Part shown: positions 10,117-61,168 of the stretch, in pieces
Position numbering within the stretch: position 1 is the first letter of the stretch
Layout of the letters: every line of letters begins with the position of its first letter
Assembly (NCBI GenBank): GCA_965287045.1
Contig: OZ336885.1
Span: 17,236,001-17,300,000 of the forward strand
DNA length: 64,000 nucleotides
Source: Carcharhinus amblyrhynchos
Lineage: Eukaryota
Reading direction: 5' to 3'
Translations under genes and position numbers: made by a program
The notes under the pieces: generated by a model
The model's database searches: none
What the model was told of the DNA's origin: nothing
Seen by the model: only the letters and a program-made list of their open reading frames with translations

Positions 10117-10754
10117 AACATAAGAACATAAGAACATAAGAAATAGGAGCAGGAGTAGGCCATCTAGCCCTTCGAGCCTGCCCCGCCATTCAATAAGATC
10201 ATGGCTGATCTGTCGTGGCTCAGTTCCACTTTCCCGCCCTCTCCCCATAACCCTTAATCCCCTCTCCTATCAAAAACCCATCAACCCGCGTCTTAAAAAT
10301 ATTTAGCGAGGCAGCCTCCACCACTTCAACGGGCAGAGAATTCCAGAGATTCACCACCCTTTGAGTGAAGAAGTTCCTCCTCAACTCCGTTCTAAACCGC
10401 CCCCCTTTTATGTTGAGGCTGTGCCCCCTAGTCCTACTGTCTTTTTTGAGCGGGAAGAGTCTTTCCACCTCTATCCTAGCCATCCCATTCATCATCTTAT
10501 ACGTCTCAATGAGATCTCCCCTCATTCTTCTAAACTCTAACGAGTACAAGCCCAGTTTATTCAGCCTCTCCTCATAGCTCAACCCCCTCAACTCCGGTAT
10601 CAGCCTAGTAAACCTCCTCTGCACTCCCTCCAAGGCCAAAATATCTTTGCGCAGGTGCGGCGCCCAAAACTGCACACAGTACTCCAGCTGCGGCCTCACC
10701 AATGCCCTATACAGCTGCAGCAAGGCCTCCCTACTTTTATATTCAATCCCCCTC
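10117..10754 (-). mobile_element. Young CR1 LINE, 5'-truncated, open ORF2 C-terminus
   Basis: ORF 10220-10807: RGIEYKSRE..LEYCVQFW..RRFTRLIP..LGLYSLEFRRMRGDLIE; (aacataag)n tail. Confidence 0.95.
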
Positions 10755-10826
10755 CAAAAAAATACCAAAGCACCCAGAGGAAACCTGCGCAGACACGGGA
10801 AGAACATCCAAATTCCACAGAGACCG

Positions 10827-10954
10827 GAGCTGGAATTTTAGCAGCCAGCTCGTCACGGGAATCGGAGCGGGCGAGGGGTGGACCATGGAAAAGGCTGTTG
10901 ACCTCGGGTGGGATTTTACTGTTTCAGGACGAACGAGGCGGTGAAATCCTGCCC
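10827..10954. mobile_element. ~125 bp MITE with GGGYGRGATTTT-type TIRs
   Basis: Imperfect terminal inverted repeats; body shared with copies at 15496, 20383, 46298, 49786 and 55549. Confidence 0.75.
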
Positions 10955-12891: not shown

Positions 12892-13915
12892 CATAAAAAC
12901 ATAAGAAATAGGAGCAGGAGTAGGCCATCTAGCCCTTCGGGCCTGCCCCGCCATTCAGTAAGATCATGGCTGATCTGTCGTGGCTCAGTTCCACATTCCC
13001 GCCCTCTCCCCATAACCCTTAATCCCCTCGCTTATCAAAAACCCATCAACCCGCGTCTTAAAAATATTTAGCGAGGCAGCCTCCACCACCTCAACAGGCA
13101 GAGAATTCCAGAGATTCACCACCCTTTGAGTGAAGAAGTTCCTCCTCAACTCCGTTCTAAACCGCCCCCCTTTTATCTTGAGGCTGTGCCCCCTAGTCCT
13201 ACTGTCCTTTCTGAGCGGGAAGAGTCTCTCCACCTCTATCCTATCCATCCCATTCATCATCTTATACGTCTCAATGAGATCTCCCCTCATTCTTCTAAAC
13301 TCTAACGAGTACAAGCCTAGTTTATTCAGCCTCTCCTCACAGCTCAACCCCCTCAACTCCGGCATCAGCCTAGTAAACCTCCTCTGCACTCCCTCCAAGG
13401 CCAAAATATCCTTGCGTAAGTACGGCGACCAAAACTGCACACAGTACTCCAGCTGCAGCCTCACCAATGCCCTATACAGCCGCAGCAAGACCTCCTTACT
13501 TTTATATTCAATCCCCCTCGCTATGAAGGCCAGCATCCCATTCGCCTTCCTGACCACCTGCTGCACCTGCAGGCTGGGTTTTTGCAACTCATGCACAAGG
13601 ACCCCGAGGTCCCTCTGCACCGTCGCCTGCTGCAGTTTTTCGCCACATAAGTAATAGTCCTTCCTACCATTATTCCTACCAAAGTGGACCACCTCGCACT
13701 TGCCAACATTAAATTCCATTTGCCAGTTCCTGGCCCGTTCGCCCAGCCTATCTAGATCCTTCTGCAGACTCTCCACACCCTCCGCGCAATTTGCCGTTCC
13801 ACCAATCTTGGTGTCATCAGCAAATTTCGACACCATACACTCGGTTCCCTCCTCCAGATCATCTATATAAATGGTAAATAGCTGAGGTCCCAGCACCGAC
13901 CCCTGGGGCACTCCG
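12892..13915 (-). mobile_element. Young CR1 LINE, 5'-truncated (~1 kb)
   Basis: Uninterrupted RT C-terminal half with CpGs retained; cataag tail. Confidence 0.95.
12985..13914 (-). CDS. CR1 ORF2 reverse transcriptase, C-terminal ~310 aa (fragment, no native start)
   Basis: GVPQGSVLGPQLFTIYIDDL, KFADDTK and WQMEFNVGKC motifs within ORF 12985-14103. Confidence 0.9.
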   Translation of the reverse strand, partial: GVPQGSVLGPQLFTIYIDDLEEGTECMVSKFADDTKIGGTANCAEGVESLQKDLDRLGERARNWQMEFNVGKCEVVHFGRNNGRKDYYLCGEKLQQATVQRDLGVLVHELQKPSLQVQQVVRKANGMLAFIARGIEYKSKEVLLRLYRALVRLQLEYCVQFWSPYLRKDILALEGVQRRFTRLMPELRGLSCEERLNKLGLYSLEFRRMRGDLIETYKMMNGMDRIEVERLFPLRKDSRTRGHSLKIKGGRFRTELRRNFFTQRVVNLWNSLPVEVVEAASLNIFKTRVDGFLISEGIKGYGERAGMWN

Positions 13916-14607
13916 TGGGTGAGGCAGGAAAGGGGAGACAGAGAGCAGGAGCACAGGAGTCTTAGTCTCTGTAATTGTCCAATAGATTCTCTCAGTTTAT
14001 TTGAATGTGAGTGGGGGATGCAGGGCGGATGAGCTGACTGACTATGGCACTGTGACACAGGAAGACATTCAAGTGGGCAGAGCAAAAAGGAATACAGTAG
14101 CATTGGGGGGCAGTTTGATGAGGGTGTTTGACACCATTCTCTGCCGCAAAGAACACGAGATCAGGTGGCTGTGTTATCTGCCAGTGCCAGGGTTCAGGAT
14201 TTCTGCTCAGGGTTGGACAGGAGATTCCGCTGGGAGGGGAAGAGTCCACTTGTCATGGTCCATGTAGGTTCCAACAACATAGGTCAAACTGGGAAAGAGG
14301 TTCCACATAGAGACATAATCTACATGGCGAGAATTTTATCCTTTCCCCCAGTGAGTTCTGAGATGGGGTGGGGGGCCATGAAATTGCATAAATGGGATTC
14401 CAACCAGGCTTCTGTCTGTCCTGATCTGGCGGATGGATGACAGCTCATGCGAGGATACCAGGAAATGAAGGGAGTCAGATCTCGAGTCAGGGGAGGGTGA
14501 CCTGCCCTACCCTTCGTGCTCAGTCCCTGACACTTACATTTTTCTCCAGTTCCAGGGATGGCTTTGTGAAGCATCTCCTCCAGCCACTGCAGCTTTGTTC
14601 CTGGAGA

Positions 14608-30519: not shown

Positions 30520-31128
30520 AGAATAAAGAGTAGGGATGTACTGCTGAGGCTGGATAAGGCTCTGGTCAGACCCCATTTGGAATATTCTGAGAAGTTTTGG
30601 GCACCATACCTGAAGAAGGATTTGCTGGCCTTAGAGGTAGTCCAGAGGACGTTCGCAAGATGATCCCAGGAATGAAAGGTTTGCCATTTGAGGACCGGTT
30701 GAGGACTTTGGCTCTATACTTGATGCAGTTTAGAAGGATGAGAGGGGATCTAATCAAAACTTACAAAATACTGAGAAGCCTAGATAGAGTGGACATGGAG
30801 AGGATGCTTTCACTAGTGGGAGAGGCTAGAACTCGAATGCACAACCTCAGAGTGAAGGGACGTCCCTTTAAAACTGAAGTGAGGATGAATTTCTTCAGCC
30901 AAAGGGACATGAATCTGTGGAACTCATTGCCACAGAAGGCTGTGGAGCACAGGTCAATGAGTGTCTTTAAAGCAGAGATAGATAGGTTCTTGATCGATAA
31001 GGGAATCAAGAGTTATGGGAGACGACAGGAGAATGTGGATAGGAATCATATCAGCCATGATTGAATGGTGGAGCAGACTCGATGGGCCGAAAGGCTTAAT
31101 TTTGCTCCAATATCTTATGGTCTTATGG
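30520..31128 (+). mobile_element. CR1 3' fragment
   Basis: ORF 30597-31064: FRRMRGDLIKTYKIL..NFFSQR..LWNSLP; tcttatgg tail. Confidence 0.9.
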
Positions 31129-33880: not shown

Positions 33881-34517
33881 TAAATATTTAAGAGGAATTT
33901 CAGTGCCCCAAAGTATTTCTATATCTTCTCAGTGTTGTGTCTCTATGTTTTCCCTTGAGGATATTCTTTTTTAATTTATTTGCTGGCTTGCTGCTTTGTT
34001 TACATTTTTCCCAGTGTTTAATGTTTCTTCCTGCAAAATCCTTGTGGTTTTCTGTTGGAGTTAGAACAGGATTTCATCTTGAGCTGCCCTCACTGACAAC
34101 TATCATTGTGGCTGATGAATTTTGTTGTGTGCCTCTCTGTCACATATTATTTATTAAGAAGGCAAAGAGAAAAGAAAAACCCACTGCCCAAAGTCCAGGA
34201 GGATACCAAGGTTGAGAAGAATAAAAGATAGGGGGTAAATGAATAAATGTTGTTCAAGGTATAAAGCGGGCAATGCTGGAAATTTGCTACTGGATTGCCA
34301 ACATCCAGATGGAGAGAGATGGAAGGATGTTCAAGTATAGTAATTTCATCAGAACTGGAAATTGGGAGAGCAGCAATGCCCCAAGTAGAATAAAATCAAT
34401 AATTTGGGGAGTGATGAGTGGATTTTTTACATCGATACGATGCCATGTTAAATTTTGAATGTAAGCCTCACTACAGGATTTATACAAACAATCCAGGATA
34501 TCACTTCAGTGACATCT

Positions 34518-35008
34518 CTGCAGTGCAGAAGGAGAACATGTGGCCCATTGGGTCTGTACCAACTCTCTGATAGAGCATCTTACCTAGATATTATCCTTGC
34601 AACCCCACATATTTACCCTGCTAATTCTCCCTACCTATAATAGGAATTGACCATGCTAAACTGACCCTAGTGTAAGGGGGTTTAACATGTAAATGAGAGT
34701 TATGGGGAAAGGGCCTGGGTAGGATTGTGGTCGATACAGGTTCGATGGACCAAATGGCCTCCTTTTGTACTAAATGATTCTATTCTATGATTCAATACAC
34801 CTTGAGTCACTAAAGAACAATTTAGCCTGGCCAACCCACCTAACCCACATATCTTTGGACTGTGGGAGGAAACCGGAGCACCCAGAGGAAACCCACGCTT
34901 GCATGGGGTGAACATGCAAACTCCACACAAACACCCAAAGCCAGAATATAACTTGTGTCCCTAACGCTGTGAGGCAGCTGTGCTAACCACTGTGCCACGG
35001 CGTTGCCC
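34518..35008 (-). mobile_element. HE1-type SINE with an antisense HE1 3' fragment (34640-34795) nested
   Basis: Both orientations of the HE1 tail are visible. Confidence 0.8.
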
Positions 35009-35323
35009 GAATGCTGCACTGTCAGATGTGCTTTTTTTCAGATCAGAAGTTAATTCCAGGTCCTGCTTTCATAGAAAATGTCACATCAAACAATACAAGA
35101 GCAAAGTGTTTCAGCCAACATTCTGCCCTCAATTAATCCTATTATGGAATAGGATTCATTAATAATGAATCTAATTTAAAACCAGAGACTCCCAACAGTG
35201 CAGATTTAGCACATCGAGTCTGCACCAACTCTCTAAAACAGCATCCCCTCCAGGCCCTCCTTTCTATCCCTGTAACCCTGTGCATTTCCAGGTTTTAGTC
35301 CAACCTATTTATTTGATAATATA

Positions 35324-35363
35324 CTCATAAGCTTTCGAGGGGACTGCCTCTTCGTCAGGTGAA
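35324..35363 (-). ncRNA. Minimal hammerhead ribozyme (left-arm copy)
   Basis: Minus strand UUCAC-CUGACGA-A-GAGG-CAGUCC-CCUC-GAAA-GC-UU-AUGAG; the first helix I pair is mismatched. Confidence 0.7.
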
Positions 35364-35764
35364 TGGAGAGTTCTGGCCTCAGACAGAGCATATAAAGCAC
35401 AGACAGTTTAGAGATTACTGATTAAAATGCGAATCCTTACACCTAACCTGCTGTTCAAGACCTGAAGTGGCTGATAATGTGAGTGGAAGGAGCACTGATC
35501 ACAGTTTAAAGAGATATGTATTGTCTCCAGACAGTACAGTAAGTGAGGTTTTGCAAACCCAGGCAAGTCACAGGGGTTACAGATAGTGCGACATGAACCC
35601 AAGATCCCTGTTGAGACCGTCCTCATGTGTGCGGAACTTGGCTATCAGTCTTGGCTCAGCGACTCTGCGCTGTCGTGTGTCGTGAAGGCCGCCTTGGAGA
35701 ATGCTTACCCGAAGGTCAGAGGCTGAATGCCCGTGACCACTGAAGTGTTCGCCAACAGGAAGGG

Positions 35765-35974
35765 ACAGTCACCAGGCAAGACTGTTCCCTTCCTGTTGGC
35801 GAACACTTCAGTGGTCACGGGCATTCAGCCTCTGACCTTCGGGTAAGCATTCTCCAAGGCAGCCTTCACGACACACGACAGCGCAGAGTCGCTGAGCAGA
35901 GACTGATAGCCAAGTTCCGCACACATGAGGATGGTCTCAACAGGGATCTTGGGTTCATGTCGCACTATCTGTAA
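35765..35974 (+). pseudogene. Penelope GIY-YIG endonuclease C-terminal fragment (mirror copy on the minus strand of the left arm)
   Basis: TVTRQDCSLPVGEHFSGHGHSASDLRVSILQGSLHDTRQRRVAEQRLIAKFRTHEDGLNRDLGFMSHYL*; PVxxHF..H, E and GLN motifs. Confidence 0.85.
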
Positions 35975-36187
35975 CCCCCGTGACTTGCCTGGGTTTGCAA
36001 AACCTCACTTACTGTACTGTCTGGAGACAATACACATCTCTTTAACCTGTGATCAGTGCTCCTTCCACTCACATTGTCAGCCACTTCAGGTCTTGAACAG
36101 CAGGTTAGGTGTAAGGATTCGCATTTTAATCAGTAATCTCTAAACTGTCTGTGCTTTATATGCTCTGTCTGAGGCCAGAACTCTCCA

Positions 36188-36227
36188 TTCACCTGACGAA
36201 GAGGCAGTCTCCTCGAAAGCTTGTGAG
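36188..36227 (+). ncRNA. Minimal type I hammerhead ribozyme of the Penelope pLTR
   Basis: UUCAC-CUGACGA-A-GAGG-CAGUCU-CCUC-GAAA-GC-UU-GUGAG: intact CUGANGA/GAAA core, helices I and II, palindromic AAGCUU helix III. Confidence 0.8.
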
Positions 36228-37644
36228 TATATTATCAAATAAATAGGTTGGACTAAAACCTGGTGTTGTCAGACTTTTTACTGTGTTTACGCCAGTCCAA
36301 CGCCGGCATACCCACATCATGACCCTGTGCATTTACCATGGCTAATCCACCTAACCTACACATTTTAGCGTCGGGGGATTAGCAGAGTAAATATGTGGGG
36401 TTACACAGATAGGGCCTGGGTGGGATTGTTATCGGTGCAGACTCAATGAGCTGAATGGACTTCCTCTGCATTGTAGGAATCCTATGATTCTATGATCTTT
36501 TGACACTATGGGCAATTTAGCATGGCCAATTCACCTAAACTACACACCTTTGCAACACGGAAAGAAACTGGATCACCTGAAGGAAACACATGCAGATACT
36601 GGAAGAATGTGCAAACGCCACATAGACGGTCACCCAAGGCCAGAATTGAACCTGGGTCCCTGGCACTTGTGAGGCAGTAGTGCTAACGACTGTGCCACCA
36701 TGCCACTCCCATTGGGTGTGTGTTGGCTGCTCACCACTATGTTTACAATAGTGACTGCGCTTTGAAAGTATTTAATTTAGCTGTGAAGCACTTCGGAAAA
36801 ATTCTAAGGCCAATATACAGAATAATTAGAAGGTTCTCACTTCATTTGCCTGGGATAAGAATGGATGAAATTTACCTTAATAAGAATGTTACTGGAAAAC
36901 TATTGCATTGAATTTTACTGACATAAATCATTCCTGTATATATTAGAGTATCACAAGTTTACCTGCTGCAACCAGTCTTTACTTTGTAGTAAAATAATCC
37001 ATCATTTTCTTCACAAAGGCCATCATTAATAAGCTTTGTGAATTATAGGAAACGTCTTAATGTTTCTTAGGCTAGGTTAGCATTTATATATTTCTGGGCG
37101 GTTGCTGTGTGATAACTTGTCAGGCACCACTTGGAATCACATGAACACCTTCAAGTGGTCTAAATGCTAAATGCAATTGTAAGCTTATGAAGTTTAAAAG
37201 TATACGAAACTAGGGAACATAGAGACATGAATCCTTTTGGAACTAGATCAGCATGGCAGTTAGGTAGAAACACAAGAAAAAAATTATGACTGCCAAAATA
37301 TAGCACATTTAATTAGACATATGCAGCAAGTAAGTACAGAAAATGGAACAGAATTAACAAGAAAGGGACTTGGAAACAGTAATAGACTTGGCACCTCTGG
37401 TGTCTAGACAATGGAGTGTAGTAGGCATGCCCACATTTTTTCTAACCTTTGAAAGCACCTTAGGGTGATGAATGGAACCACAAGAGCTACCGATAAAGTT
37501 TAAATCAATGTCCTGTTAACTCACATTATATCCAAAGCCAAAGAAACTGATGGATTTTGGTACTCTGGCTTAGGATTTATCCATCTTTTCCAAATCTCCA
37601 GGCCGACAAATAATCAAACAGGGAAAATCACCAAAAGCCCAAAA

Positions 37645-42527: not shown

Positions 42528-44084
42528 TCCCTCCACACCAAGATCCTTTATACAAATGTCAATACTCAATTTACACAGTCCCAGATATTCAAACATTTAG
42601 TACATGAATTTAGTCAATTACAAATTATGTCTTTCAGGGGGTTTCCGAATCCCTATGGAAAGGCGTAATACCTCTGTCTGGGGGGCTTCCACAGGATTGT
42701 TGTCAGCCAAAACTGCAATGACAGGTGCCTATTCAGGCACAGGGGGTTCAGTTCTATCTGTTTCCATGGAGGTGTGGGTTGTGCCTACCACAGGACGACC
42801 AGGCACTTCAGTACGAAAACAGTCGGCAACATTTCCTGGTGGAAATTTACTTCCTGGCAAAACTGGCTGCTGGGGCATCTCTCTTTTTCTCATATGGTCT
42901 ACATATTTTCAGAAGATTCTTCCTGGGACTGCAGCAGGCAACCTTTGTTGCAATTGACACCATTCACAATGCTTGACTAAGCTCTCAATGTCCGCATCAA
43001 TGCCAGGCCACCACACATAACTCCTGAGGAGCGTCTTCATCTCGAGATGCCCAGATGTGCACTGTGTAATTCCAATAGAAGCAGTTCTCTGCCTGGTACA
43101 GGGATAACTACTCTTACTCCCCAGCATATAACGCCATCCTGGCAAATTAAATCATCATTATGGGTAACAAATGGATTCATTTCATCAGAAACTGGCCCAA
43201 CATGTAAGTATCTTGTGTCTCACTTTGGATAGAAGTGGATCCTGACCAGTCCAGTACCTGATTTGCTTTGCCAAGAGTGGCAATGTGTCCAAAAAAGTTC
43301 AATGCCCAATTAGCTGTTAACTTGTAACAACACAAATACAGATGGTCTTGTCTGGGTTCAATACAGGAACTGTGGGTGCTGCTCTTTCTGAGAACTGAAC
43401 TGGCTGGATAATGCCCAGTTCTTCCACTTGCTTTAATTCAGTATATACTTTCCCTCACAAAGCATATGATGCTGATCCTGCCGTAAAGAACTGAGGGGTC
43501 GCCCCTGGGTCCACATATATCTTTGCTTGCAGGCCTTTTAGTGTGCCTAATTCATAATTGAAGATGCTCTCTTATTTATCATCAGTCTGAGCAATCCTCC
43601 CTCCCTCACTTGGAAAATCTTGGTCCAATTTAAGTTCTATTACCCAATCATGGCCGCGAAGACTTGGTCTTTCACCTGACGCTATGATTGCTGCGAGTTA
43701 GGCAGACTATTGCCTATAGTTTACAGGTCCCATTGCAATGCCCATCATTTTTATTGCTTCTCCAGTATAACTTGGACGCAGTGCTCTTTGAATTCAATGG
43801 GTGAATCCTTCCCTCAAGTACTGATACATATGTTCAGCTATCACAGTAGCTGATGCTCCTGTATTGCCTTCCATCTTAAGAGACTTCCCATTTACCCAGG
43901 AAATTACAGTAAAAAGGGCTAACTCGCCCGTTTTTGTATTAAGCAGTGAGTGAATATTTAAATCGTTGATGCTGGATTCTCCCACATTGTACACTGGTGA
44001 CACCTTATCTCACCGGCCACTCAGTAGACTTGAGTTGGCTCTGCACCTATGCCTTATGTAGCCTCTCCTATGGCAAAAAAAAAC

Positions 44085-44292
44085 CAGTAAGAAGTCTGAC
44101 AACACCAGGTTTGAGTCCAACCGATTTATTTGATAGCAAACTTGCAAGCTTTCGAGTTTTGCCCCTTCGTCAGGTGATTCACAAACCCTGAAAGCTTGCG
44201 AGTTTACTATCAAATAAATTGGTTGGACTTAAACCTGGCCTTGTCAGACTTCTTACTGTGTTTACCCCAGTCCAACACCGGCATCTCCACGT
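44085..44292 (+). mobile_element. Non-coding mini Penelope pLTR palindrome
   Basis: Arms 44085-44153 and 44190-44258, 3' extension to 44292, TSD-like CAAAAAAAA(A)CC on both sides; homologous to 36215-36321. Confidence 0.88.
44141..44177 (-). ncRNA. Minimal hammerhead ribozyme-like motif
   Basis: Minus strand UCAC-CUGACGA-A-GGG-GCAAAA-CUC-GAAA-GC-UU-GCAAG; core intact, helices weak. Confidence 0.55.
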
Positions 44293-44423
44293 CAAAAAAA
44301 ACCACTCAGCCTCCTTATACCTGTGGGATTCAGGGAAGTGCAGTAGTCCCAACATGGTAATTGTTCAGCACCACTTTGAAAGTAAACTTTACAAAGGGCA
44401 AAAGAGTTGGAATAGAACTTTAA

Positions 44424-60260: not shown

Positions 60261-60396
60261 TCTGAGAGCGGTCATTCCTGGGGACTGTTACCGTGGAGCA
60301 CTCCCAAGGCTGTCACAAAGAAATGTGCACAGCAAAGTTCTGCCCAATCTCTTCCAACCCTATACTTTAGTCCAGGCTTTCACCTGGTCCATTTGT

Positions 60397-61168
60397 AGTG
60401 GTCCATTTTGGCAGGATCAATAGGATGAAGGAGTACAATATCAAGGGTAGGAGTCTTAGCAGTGTTGAGGAGCAGAAGGATCTTGGGGTCCAGGTCCATA
60501 GGATGCTCAAATTGGCCTCGCAGGTGGAGGATGTGGTCAAGAAGGCATATGGTATACTGGCCTTCATTAATCGAGGGGTTGAGTTTAGGAGTCGGGAAGT
60601 AATGCTGCAACTTTATAAGACCCTTGTCAGACCCCACTTGGAGTACTGTGCGCAATTCTGGTCGCCTCACTACAGGAAGGATGTGGAGGCTATTGAGAGG
60701 GTGCAGAGGAGATTTACAAGGATGTTGCCTGGATTGGGAGGCATGCCTTATGAAGATGGGTCGCGAGAGCTAGGTCTCTTCTCCCTGGAGAGATGAAGGA
60801 TGAGAGGTGACCTGATAGAGGTTTATAAAACGTTGAGAGGAATGGATAGGGTGGATTCTCGGATGCTATTTCCCAGGGCTGAAATGGTCGCTACGAGAGG
60901 ACACAGGTTTAAGGTGCTGGAAAGCAAGTACAGAGATGTTAGGGGTAAGTTTTTCACTCAGAGAGTGTTGAGTGAGTGGAATCGGCTGCCGTCAGTGGTG
61001 GTAGAGGTGAACTCAATGGGGTCTTCTAAAAGACTTCTGGATGAGTATATGGGATTTAATGGGATTGGGAGTTACAGACAGTTCTATGGCTTGGTAGGTA
61101 TGGATGTGATCGGCGCAACTTGTGGGCCGAAGGGCCTGTTTCTGCTGTAGTGTTCTATGTTCTATGTT
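60397..61168 (+). mobile_element. CR1 3' fragment
   Basis: ORFs 60398-60796 and 60800-61150 are separated by one stop: LVRPHLEYCAQFWSP..MRGDLIEVYK; (ttctatg)n tail. Confidence 0.92.

What the first reader, a model, noticed from the sequence alone, without database searches (positions are those of the whole stretch)
35288..36321. ~975 bp palindromic Penelope element with a hammerhead ribozyme on each strand
Seen: two ~483 bp arms differing by about 10 substitutions and one 1-nt indel by eye, a 9-nt spacer, a 13-bp TSD, a GIY-YIG C-terminus, and CUGACGA/GAAA cores at 36188-36227 (+) and 35324-35363 (-). Known: PLEs often insert with inverted pLTRs and carry minimal hammerheads that act as dimers. 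Inference: a read-through transcript from either strand carries one hammerhead near its 3' end plus that ribozyme's own antisense copy near its 5' end. A ~480 bp hairpin (Dicer/ADAR substrate) would then compete with self-cleavage. The DNA could also extrude a cruciform.
Basis: partly seen in the sequence, partly recalled or inferred. Interest (0 to 1): 0.72.

Follow-up and report, generated by a model that had tools for sequence, protein, structure and literature searches.

The report
Mirror-image Penelope-like retrotransposon stub
This is an ordinary mirror-image stub of a very abundant Penelope-like jumping gene, likely written from both ends of one staggered DNA cut; its two ribozyme motifs are passengers predicted to be locked up in the hairpin, and the one fresh point is that the family's insertion sites share a symmetric DNA motif.

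Summary
The palindrome is real: 478-bp arms with 10 substitutions, a 13-bp target duplication, an endonuclease C-terminus and one minimal hammerhead per arm. It is a 5'-truncated, head-to-head insertion of a Neptune/Nematis-type Penelope-like element (PLE), and this layout is the family's norm: 51 of 71 sampled loci have it, and the genome holds 28,337 exact copies of the 3' end. The layout, the one-sided tail and opposite-strand hammerhead pairs are in print, and this scan has reported such stubs in other genomes. The extra 60 bp on the right is the known PLE tail. The RNA story is weak: transcription is untested, the hairpin (-993 kcal/mol) would bury a motif that needs a sense partner, and the left hammerhead has a private break in stem I. 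Copies support twin priming: one long plus one short tail per insertion, either arm reaching further. I found no paper on one feature: a symmetric target motif, TG-N-N*-[12-13 bp]-CA mirror, met in 13 of 15 held-out sites. The two arms here also differ at two family-polymorphic sites, hinting at two RNA templates.

The parts
35270..35274 (+). Left half of the symmetric target motif (TG at -4/-3 before the duplication)
   Evidence: Sequence; family motif
35275..35287 (+). Left copy of the 13-bp target-site duplication, inside an older dispersed repeat (SINE-like)
   Evidence: D19; D4 shows the host repeat resuming at 36330; same 13-bp cut at an independent insertion, L168
35288..35765 (-). Left arm: last ~58 codons of the ORF, 3' UTR and pseudo-LTR; ends at position 0, about 21 nt short of the family's usual short tail
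35323..35364 (-). Left minimal hammerhead; private G-to-A at 35328 breaks the first pair of stem I
   Evidence: (0 of 164 arms)
35764..35785 (+). Centre: 5' end of the right arm, with the element's native 6-bp stem and 9-nt loop; the arm junction lies in 2-7 nt of microhomology here
35764..36263 (+). Right arm: endonuclease C-terminus (stop at 35969-35971), 3' UTR and pseudo-LTR
   Evidence: family ORF
36155..36189 (+). TATA-like and initiator-like motifs 30 nt apart (predicted pseudo-LTR promoter; consensus recalled, not from a call)
   Evidence: Sequence; 5' ends of copies cluster at -65 to -92, next to it; inference
36187..36228 (+). Right minimal type I hammerhead: stem I 36187-36192/36223-36228, core 36193-36199, extra A 36200, 4-bp stem II, palindromic AGCU in place of stem III; predicted cut after 36222
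   Evidence: definition from PMC4209133
36264..36323 (+). Long tail (+58 to +60), ending in the ATG that opens the ORF in tandem copies
36322..36334 (+). Right copy of the 13-bp target-site duplication (first 2 nt shared with the element end)
36335..36339 (+). Right half of the symmetric target motif (CA at +3/+4 after the duplication)
   Evidence: Sequence

Best explanation
This is a 5'-truncated head-to-head insertion of an abundant Neptune/Nematis-type Penelope-like retrotransposon, likely made in one event by twin-primed reverse transcription from both ends of a staggered cut, and its hammerheads are passive copies of the family's pseudo-LTR motif that a read-through RNA would bury in the hairpin. 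Steps: (1) the endonuclease, likely as a dimer, nicks both strands 13 bp apart in a symmetric site (TG at -4/-3 and CA at +3/+4 around the duplicated stretch; motif shown, nicking inferred). (2) Each 3' end primes a cDNA on uncleaved element RNA that runs from one unit's 3' end into the next unit's start; one starts at about +55-60, the other normally at about +18-25 (end positions shown, priming inferred). (3) Both cDNAs stop after about 500 nt and are joined head to head through a few bases of microhomology (junction shown, joining inferred). (4) Repair leaves the 13-bp duplication. The arms have since aged separately.
For: Family: 1,875 exact 33-nt hammerhead cores and 28,337 exact 25-mers of the 3' end, reversed-pattern controls 0; ORF with RT then GIY-YIG, DKG, CX4CxxC linker and CCHH. 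Layout: 51 of 71 loci covering the first 100 hammerhead hits hold a contiguous head-to-head pair. Tails: of 64 pairs, 49 long+short, 12 long+other, 3 others, 0 long+long; 16 of 16 held-out pairs have one long (53-68) and one short (13-31) tail. Duplications found in 58 of 64 pairs, 12 bp in 24 and 13 bp in 14. Target: T in 46 of 52 and G in 48 of 52 half-sites; both half-sites in 13 of 15 held-out sites with a duplication, control mean 0.35, max 3; an independent insertion hit the homologous repeat site with the same 13-bp duplication and much shorter arms. The short-tail arm reaches further 5' in 22 pairs and the long-tail arm in 16, which a single cDNA folding back cannot give. Junction overlap of 1-5 nt in 36 of 67 pairs. 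Uncleaved template: 33 of 7,000 copies lose the base before the cut site, 16 of 30 inspected being junctions. The anole PLE protein cuts and extends both strands, starts at two internal RNA sites matching the tail, and uses uncleaved RNA (PMC11167929).
Against: The left arm ends at 0, not at +18-25, which the two-site model does not explain (L168 has the normal +21 at the same target). The biochemistry comes from a Poseidon-clade protein that prefers ATT sites and shows no strand difference in start site, not from this clade. Arm 5' ends are correlated (29 of 47 within 35 nt, shuffled mean 11.3, max 20), which suggests one template, whereas this locus's arms differ at two polymorphic non-CpG sites, which suggests two templates or later conversion. 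No read was seen spanning both junctions. 20 of 71 loci show no contiguous partner arm within the DNA fetched.
Confidence: 0.85

Rival explanations
1. Fold-back (self-priming): one cDNA, or an antisense template, folds on itself and is copied back, giving the second arm.
For: Proposed for rotifer PLEs from palindromes at inverted junctions (PMC3846280 passages). The junction here sits in a native 6-bp hairpin, and at this locus the long-tail arm is also the one reaching further 5'. Arm ends are correlated and arms mostly share subfamily alleles.
Against: In 22 pairs the short-tail arm reaches more than 15 nt further 5' than the long-tail arm, so neither arm contains the other. The arms here carry alternative family alleles at 36046 and 36076.
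Confidence: 0.1
2. A functional RNA device: read-through transcription makes a 480-bp hairpin that gates hammerhead cleavage or feeds Dicer/ADAR, kept for that role.
For: The hairpin is predicted on both strands. The hammerhead fold is under selection in the family (stem II pair 2: A-U in 161, G-C in 54 of 220 motifs).
Against: No sign of locus-level selection: each arm has 6 differences from the family majority in 478 nt, like other copies (median 1.3%), only 1 shared, and one breaks stem I. Minimal hammerheads are inactive as monomers and weak as dimers (PMC4209133) or need the element protein (PMC11167929). The layout is a by-product seen at most insertions. A passive dsRNA effect of the whole family on its own silencing stays possible and untested.
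Confidence: 0.04
3. Assembly artefact (a read chimera or a collapsed fold-back).
For: Inverted PLE structures trouble assemblies (PMC8557442 passage). No contig spanning the junction was listed.
Against: 10 arm differences including distinct family alleles, an asymmetric tail, an asymmetric centre, a 13-bp duplication in register with the family's target motif, and an independent insertion with the same cut.
Confidence: 0.01

Closest known systems
EN+ PLE insertion with inverted 5'-truncated pseudo-LTR and one-sided 30-40 bp tail (PMC3846280 and PMC8557442, passages read)
   Same: Head-to-head inverted copies, one target duplication around the whole unit, tail on one side, hammerhead in the pseudo-LTR.
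   Different: Both arms are short 3' stubs; tail difference here is 58-60 nt because the left arm lacks its last ~21 nt (family difference about 37 nt).
Neptune/Nematis clades of PLEs (PMC8557442 passages)
   Same: C-terminal GIY-YIG with CCHH, DKG motif, and the CX2-5CxxC linker that Penelope/Poseidon lack.
   Different: Neptune is described with a microsatellite insertion bias; the sites printed for this family are not microsatellites but share a symmetric TG...CA motif. No tree was built, so Neptune versus Nematis is open.
Minimal dimeric hammerheads of metazoan PLEs (PMC4209133, parts 1-2 of 4 read)
   Same: Type I, extra base between 9 and 10.1, G10.1-C11.1, palindromic 15.2-16.2, no stem III; the paper already notes dual motifs 100-700 bp apart on opposite strands.
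   Different: Cut triplet is CUU; the pair here is about 830 bp apart; left copy has a stem I mismatch.
Anole Poseidon PAc in vitro (PMC11167929, parts 1-2 of 4 read)
   Same: Two internal start sites matching the tail, both strands extended, uncleaved RNA used, predicted dimer.
   Different: PAc is Poseidon clade, prefers ATT, and its ORF starts inside the hammerhead; here the ATG lies about 100 nt downstream of the cut site, at the long-tail end. The paper does not treat inverted insertions or duplications.
L1 twin priming (recalled; PMC2837659 seen as a search listing only)
   Same: Two primers from the two target nicks, microhomology junction, one duplication.
   Different: In L1 the second primer starts at a variable internal site, so the pieces do not overlap; here both start near the same RNA point, giving a palindrome.

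Membership tests
EN+ Penelope-like element | Single ORF with RT followed by C-terminal GIY-YIG endonuclease | tested here: met
   Family copy L110: RVT_1 E 7e-10, GIY-YIG 24.3 bits over cut-off 22.6. The locus itself holds only the last 62 codons.
EN+ Penelope-like element | CCHH motif with two cysteines between GIY and YIG; conserved R, H, E | tested here: met
   VY..RCKKGC..WYIG..R..EH..EH; Y61, C65, Y74, G76, R85, H89, H105, E135 invariant in 8 of 8 sequences; the second cysteine was not listed as invariant.
EN+ Penelope-like element | Tandem or partial-tandem units forming pseudo-LTRs | tested here: met
   L110 has two sense hammerheads 3,014 bp apart with the tail running into the ORF start.
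EN+ Penelope-like element | Inverted 5'-truncated copy, one-sided tail, target duplication around the unit | tested here: met
EN+ Penelope-like element | RT phylogeny with PLEs, sister to telomerase | not tested
   No reference RT set on hand; no tree built.
Penelope/Poseidon clade | Absence of the CX2-5CxxC linker between RT and EN | tested here: not met
   CX4CxxC present, three cysteines invariant in 8 of 8; criterion from PMC8557442.
Neptune/Nematis clades | CX2-5CxxC linker upstream of GIY-YIG | tested here: met
Neptune/Nematis clades | Placement by RT tree (Neptune versus Nematis) | not tested
   No tree built.
Neptune/Nematis clades | Microsatellite insertion bias (described tendency, not a strict criterion) | tested here: not met
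   The 64 sites printed and 15 are mixed sequence by eye; no formal microsatellite count was run.
Minimal type I hammerhead of PLEs | CUGANGA, extra base, G10.1-C11.1, GAAA, palindromic 15.2-16.2, UH, stem I | tested here: met
   Right arm meets all; left arm lacks the first pair of stem I. Family covariation in stem II.
Minimal type I hammerhead of PLEs | Rfam hammerhead model match | tested here: not met
   No hammerhead family at E<=10; expected for motifs without stem III (inference).
Minimal type I hammerhead of PLEs | Self-cleavage as a dimer | not testable with these tools
   Needs an assay.
Non-LTR retrozyme | Head-to-tail tandem non-coding units, each with a hammerhead | tested here: not met
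   Units are head to head and carry ORF sequence; definition from bioRxiv 10.64898/2026.07.22.740005, part 1 of 5.

The most novel reading that the evidence does not exclude
This shark PLE is a sequence-specific, two-fold symmetric integrase: a dimer cuts sites with TG at -4/-3 and CA at +3/+4 around a 12-13 bp core, leaves 3' overhangs, and its two RTs start at two fixed points 37 nt apart, exactly one per strand, sometimes on two different RNA molecules (as at this locus). The palindrome is then the normal product of PLE integration, and the genome's thousands of copies are a ready-made map of the reaction.
Probability: 0.5. Interest if true: 0.58.

Novelty: new member of a known kind. Interest (0 to 1): 0.3.

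Why it matters
The locus itself is ordinary. Its family bears on an open question that PMC8557442 names: how PLEs form inverted structures and tails. A defined symmetric target, a 12-13 bp stagger and a one-long-one-short rule give exact predictions for the in-vitro system now available (PMC11167929). If even part of these hairpins are transcribed, the family supplies its host with many long double-stranded RNAs against itself; that remains untested.

Tried and rejected
Rfam scan: no hammerhead match. Bacterial promoter scan: not applicable to this host. Sequencing runs: no RNA holder listed, which is no evidence on expression. Contigs of four DNA runs laid on 34300-35600 were swamped by repeats and no listed piece bridged the junction; a lay of RNA runs on the right flank gave no result, so transcription stays open. 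Host gene: 150 of 314 non-repeat ORFs of 48 aa or more scanned with Pfam gave only an integrase zinc-binding hit at 42912-43151; 164 were not scanned, so an intron setting is neither shown nor excluded. Protein Atlas gave no answer. PDB: only weak hits (T4-type endonuclease II, E 1.1 and 0.004). Gene conversion between the arms: not seen, 1 shared of 11 variant sites. Hot spot of 5' ends at the hammerhead cut site: rejected as a main route (33 of 7,000); a small excess over the next base (20) is not excluded; the third control was void because that position is a subfamily variant. My first label, Poseidon, was dropped after the linker motif was found. One search had an offset error in the tail reference and was replaced. 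Rows dropped before counts: overlapping duplicate loci (L011/L012 replaced by L120; L144 duplicate of L126), pairs without a duplication (target analysis), multi-piece loci (end-correlation and allele analyses). Cruciform extrusion was not modelled.

Full report
OBSERVATION. The inverted repeat is there: arms 35288-35765 and 35786-36263, 478 nt, 98% complementary, with a 13-nt direct repeat at 35275-35287 and 36322-36334. The right arm encodes the last 62 residues of an ORF. Both arms carry CUGACGA...GAAAGCUU; Rfam finds no hammerhead, but stem I (6 bp) and stem II (4 bp) form on the right arm, and the predicted cut falls after 36222. The insertion is about 1,035 bp, since 58-60 bp of family sequence follow the right arm.

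WHAT IT IS. The genome is 2.92 Gb; the 40 best of 1,253 candidates match the whole or nearly whole arm at 97-100%. A 33-nt hammerhead core occurs exactly 1,875 times and a 25-mer of the 3' end 28,337 times; reversed controls give 0. Locus L110 holds a unit of about 3 kb between two sense hammerheads; its tail runs into the ORF's ATG. [quoted passage not shown] By the criterion in PMC8557442 (passages) this linker marks Neptune/Nematis and excludes Penelope/Poseidon; no tree was built. The closest named homologues are from sharks, 82-91% identical. The element sits in an older dispersed repeat (families D1-D5; I recall it as a shark SINE, from no call).

THE LAYOUT IS THE NORM. I fetched 71 loci covering the first 100 hammerhead hits on contig C1; 51 hold a contiguous head-to-head pair. 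With position 0 at 36263, arm 3' ends fall at about +18-25 or +53-62. Of 64 pairs (52 from that set, 12 from the similarity search, this locus included) 49 are long+short, 12 long+other, one each short+short (apparently a parsing miss), short+other and other+other, and none long+long; 58 have a duplication, 12 bp in 24 and 13 bp in 14. In 16 further pairs picked, all have one long and one short tail. Arms of 400 bp or more on both sides are a minority (3 of 47 two-piece pairs), so this copy is on the long side. The layout and tail are described in PMC3846280 and PMC8557442 (passages), and opposite-strand hammerhead pairs in PMC4209133. This scan has noted such stubs in other genomes at least eight times.

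TARGET SITE. Rebuilding empty sites showed a symmetric motif. Among 26 sites with a 12-bp duplication, T stands at -4 in 46 of 52 half-sites and G at -3 in 48 of 52; the flanking positions lean to C and G. As the motif was read from those data, I tested it on new loci: 13 of 15 with a duplication have TG and CA on both sides of a 12- or 13-bp register, against a mean of 0.35 and a maximum of 3 in 3,000 controls with the same freedom. This locus fits with 13 bp. An independent insertion on C24 hit the homologous repeat site with the same 13-bp duplication, a normal +21 tail and arms ending at -34 and -28. Three full-text searches listed no paper on such a motif; the papers read give ATT for the anole element and microsatellites for Neptune. 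Subscription journals, Repbase Reports and supplements were not seen, so it may be in print. Two look-ups in the scan's notes found nothing on it.

HOW IT FORMS. The head-to-head order means each arm grew from a target 3' end facing inward (inferred). Simple fold-back of one cDNA needs one arm to lie within the other; yet the short-tail arm reaches further in 22 pairs and the long-tail arm in 16. Twin priming fits, and the anole protein does extend both strands from two internal sites that match the tail (PMC11167929). Junctions overlap by 1-5 nt in 36 of 67 pairs; here the join lies in the element's own 6-bp inverted repeat. The two arms' 5' ends are coupled: 29 of 47 pairs end within 35 nt (shuffled mean 11.3, max 20); outside the hot spot, 11 of 21 end within 50 nt (shuffled 5.0, p 0.002), though the rank correlation there is weak (p 0.055). 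Arms mostly share subfamily alleles: 19 of 182 comparisons at seven polymorphic non-CpG sites are discordant (10%), against 47% for shuffled partners and 1.1% (116 of 10,963) at other sites. The tenfold excess suggests that some pairs use two RNAs, switch template or were converted later; mutation hot spots could add to it. This locus is discordant at 36046 and 36076. Many 5' ends cluster at -65 to -92 (31 of 94 in the hammerhead-selected set, 13 of 32 in the unselected one), beside TATA-like and initiator-like motifs, which likely marks the RNA start. Arms as long as these need a template that reads from one unit's end into the next start.

THE HAMMERHEADS. The fold is conserved in the family: core and extra A are fixed by the search pattern or invariant, and stem II pair 2 is A-U in 161 and G-C in 54 of 220 motifs (overlapping loci may repeat a place). 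It matches the minimal dimer type, inactive alone and weak as a dimer in vitro (PMC4209133). Templates were rarely cut: 33 of 7,000 copies lose the base before the cut site, about half of them true junctions. At this locus the left motif has a private change at 35328 (0 of 164 arms) that breaks the first pair of stem I; the right motif has only a loop change. In a read-through RNA the sense motif is paired with the other arm on either strand, -993 and -997 kcal/mol against -9.9 and -7.1 for the hammerhead folds. An RNA started at the predicted promoter would run outward and carry the motif without its antisense copy (inference). Nothing here shows transcription: no RNA holder was listed and a partial scan found no host exon.

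ARTEFACT? Unlikely: arms differ at 10 sites, each arm is 6 of 478 from the family majority with 1 shared, the ends are asymmetric in the family's way, and the duplication is in register with the target motif. No read across the locus was seen.

UNEXPLAINED. The left arm lacks about 21 nt of the short tail. Three other arms end at -2 to +4 (L067, L069, L136), so a minor start site, re-cutting or a later deletion are all possible.

VERDICT. A real, ordinary insertion of a known kind, with a known layout. The hairpin-versus-ribozyme idea is geometrically right but untested and probably without function at this locus. What the family adds is a symmetric target motif that passed a held-out test, a strict long/short tail rule and a hint of two templates. 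Interest 0.3.

Noticed in passing
window 44086-44294: A second, older (85-86% identical) head-to-head stub of the same family, arms -74..+19 and -53..+56, with a duplication of about 12 bp flanked by TG and CA.
   Followed up: partly
L168 (G000:C24:19680555-19683604): Independent insertion at the homologous site of another copy of the same host repeat, same 13-bp duplication and orientation, short arms.
   Followed up: yes
L136 and L155; L038 and L147; L110 and L111: Pairs of loci with the same or nearly the same duplicated target inside a repeat but different arm lengths, two of them in opposite orientation: repeated use of one target sequence.
   Followed up: partly
L091, L092 (C1:87995300-87999300, C1:88094800-88096500): Two four-piece insertions with the same internal breakpoints (-132, -547/-360, -547/-318, -132) but different targets and swapped tails: a complex palindrome that seems to have been copied again as a unit.
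   Followed up: no
G000:C11:58609775-58609948: Four copies of a 27-mer that begins next to the hammerhead cut site, spaced 49 bp apart: a tandem micro-array.
   Followed up: no
L171, L180: Junctions at the cut site that join through the GTGA shared by the two strands of stem I, so stem I complementarity can itself guide the join.
   Followed up: no
P0005, P0010, P0014, P0015, P0019-P0021: Shark gene models (NOXP20-like, cytochrome P450, septin 5a, XRCC5, a 7TM receptor) carry pieces of this element's endonuclease region: exonised copies or annotation errors.
   Followed up: no
window 42912-43151 (-): Integrase zinc-binding domain (PF17921, E 5.7e-9), a fragment of another mobile element.
   Followed up: no
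window 10220-10837, 12985-14160, 30591-31064, 60371-61150: ORF fragments that look like the 3' end of CR1/L2-type LINE reverse transcriptases (label recalled, not tested).
   Followed up: no
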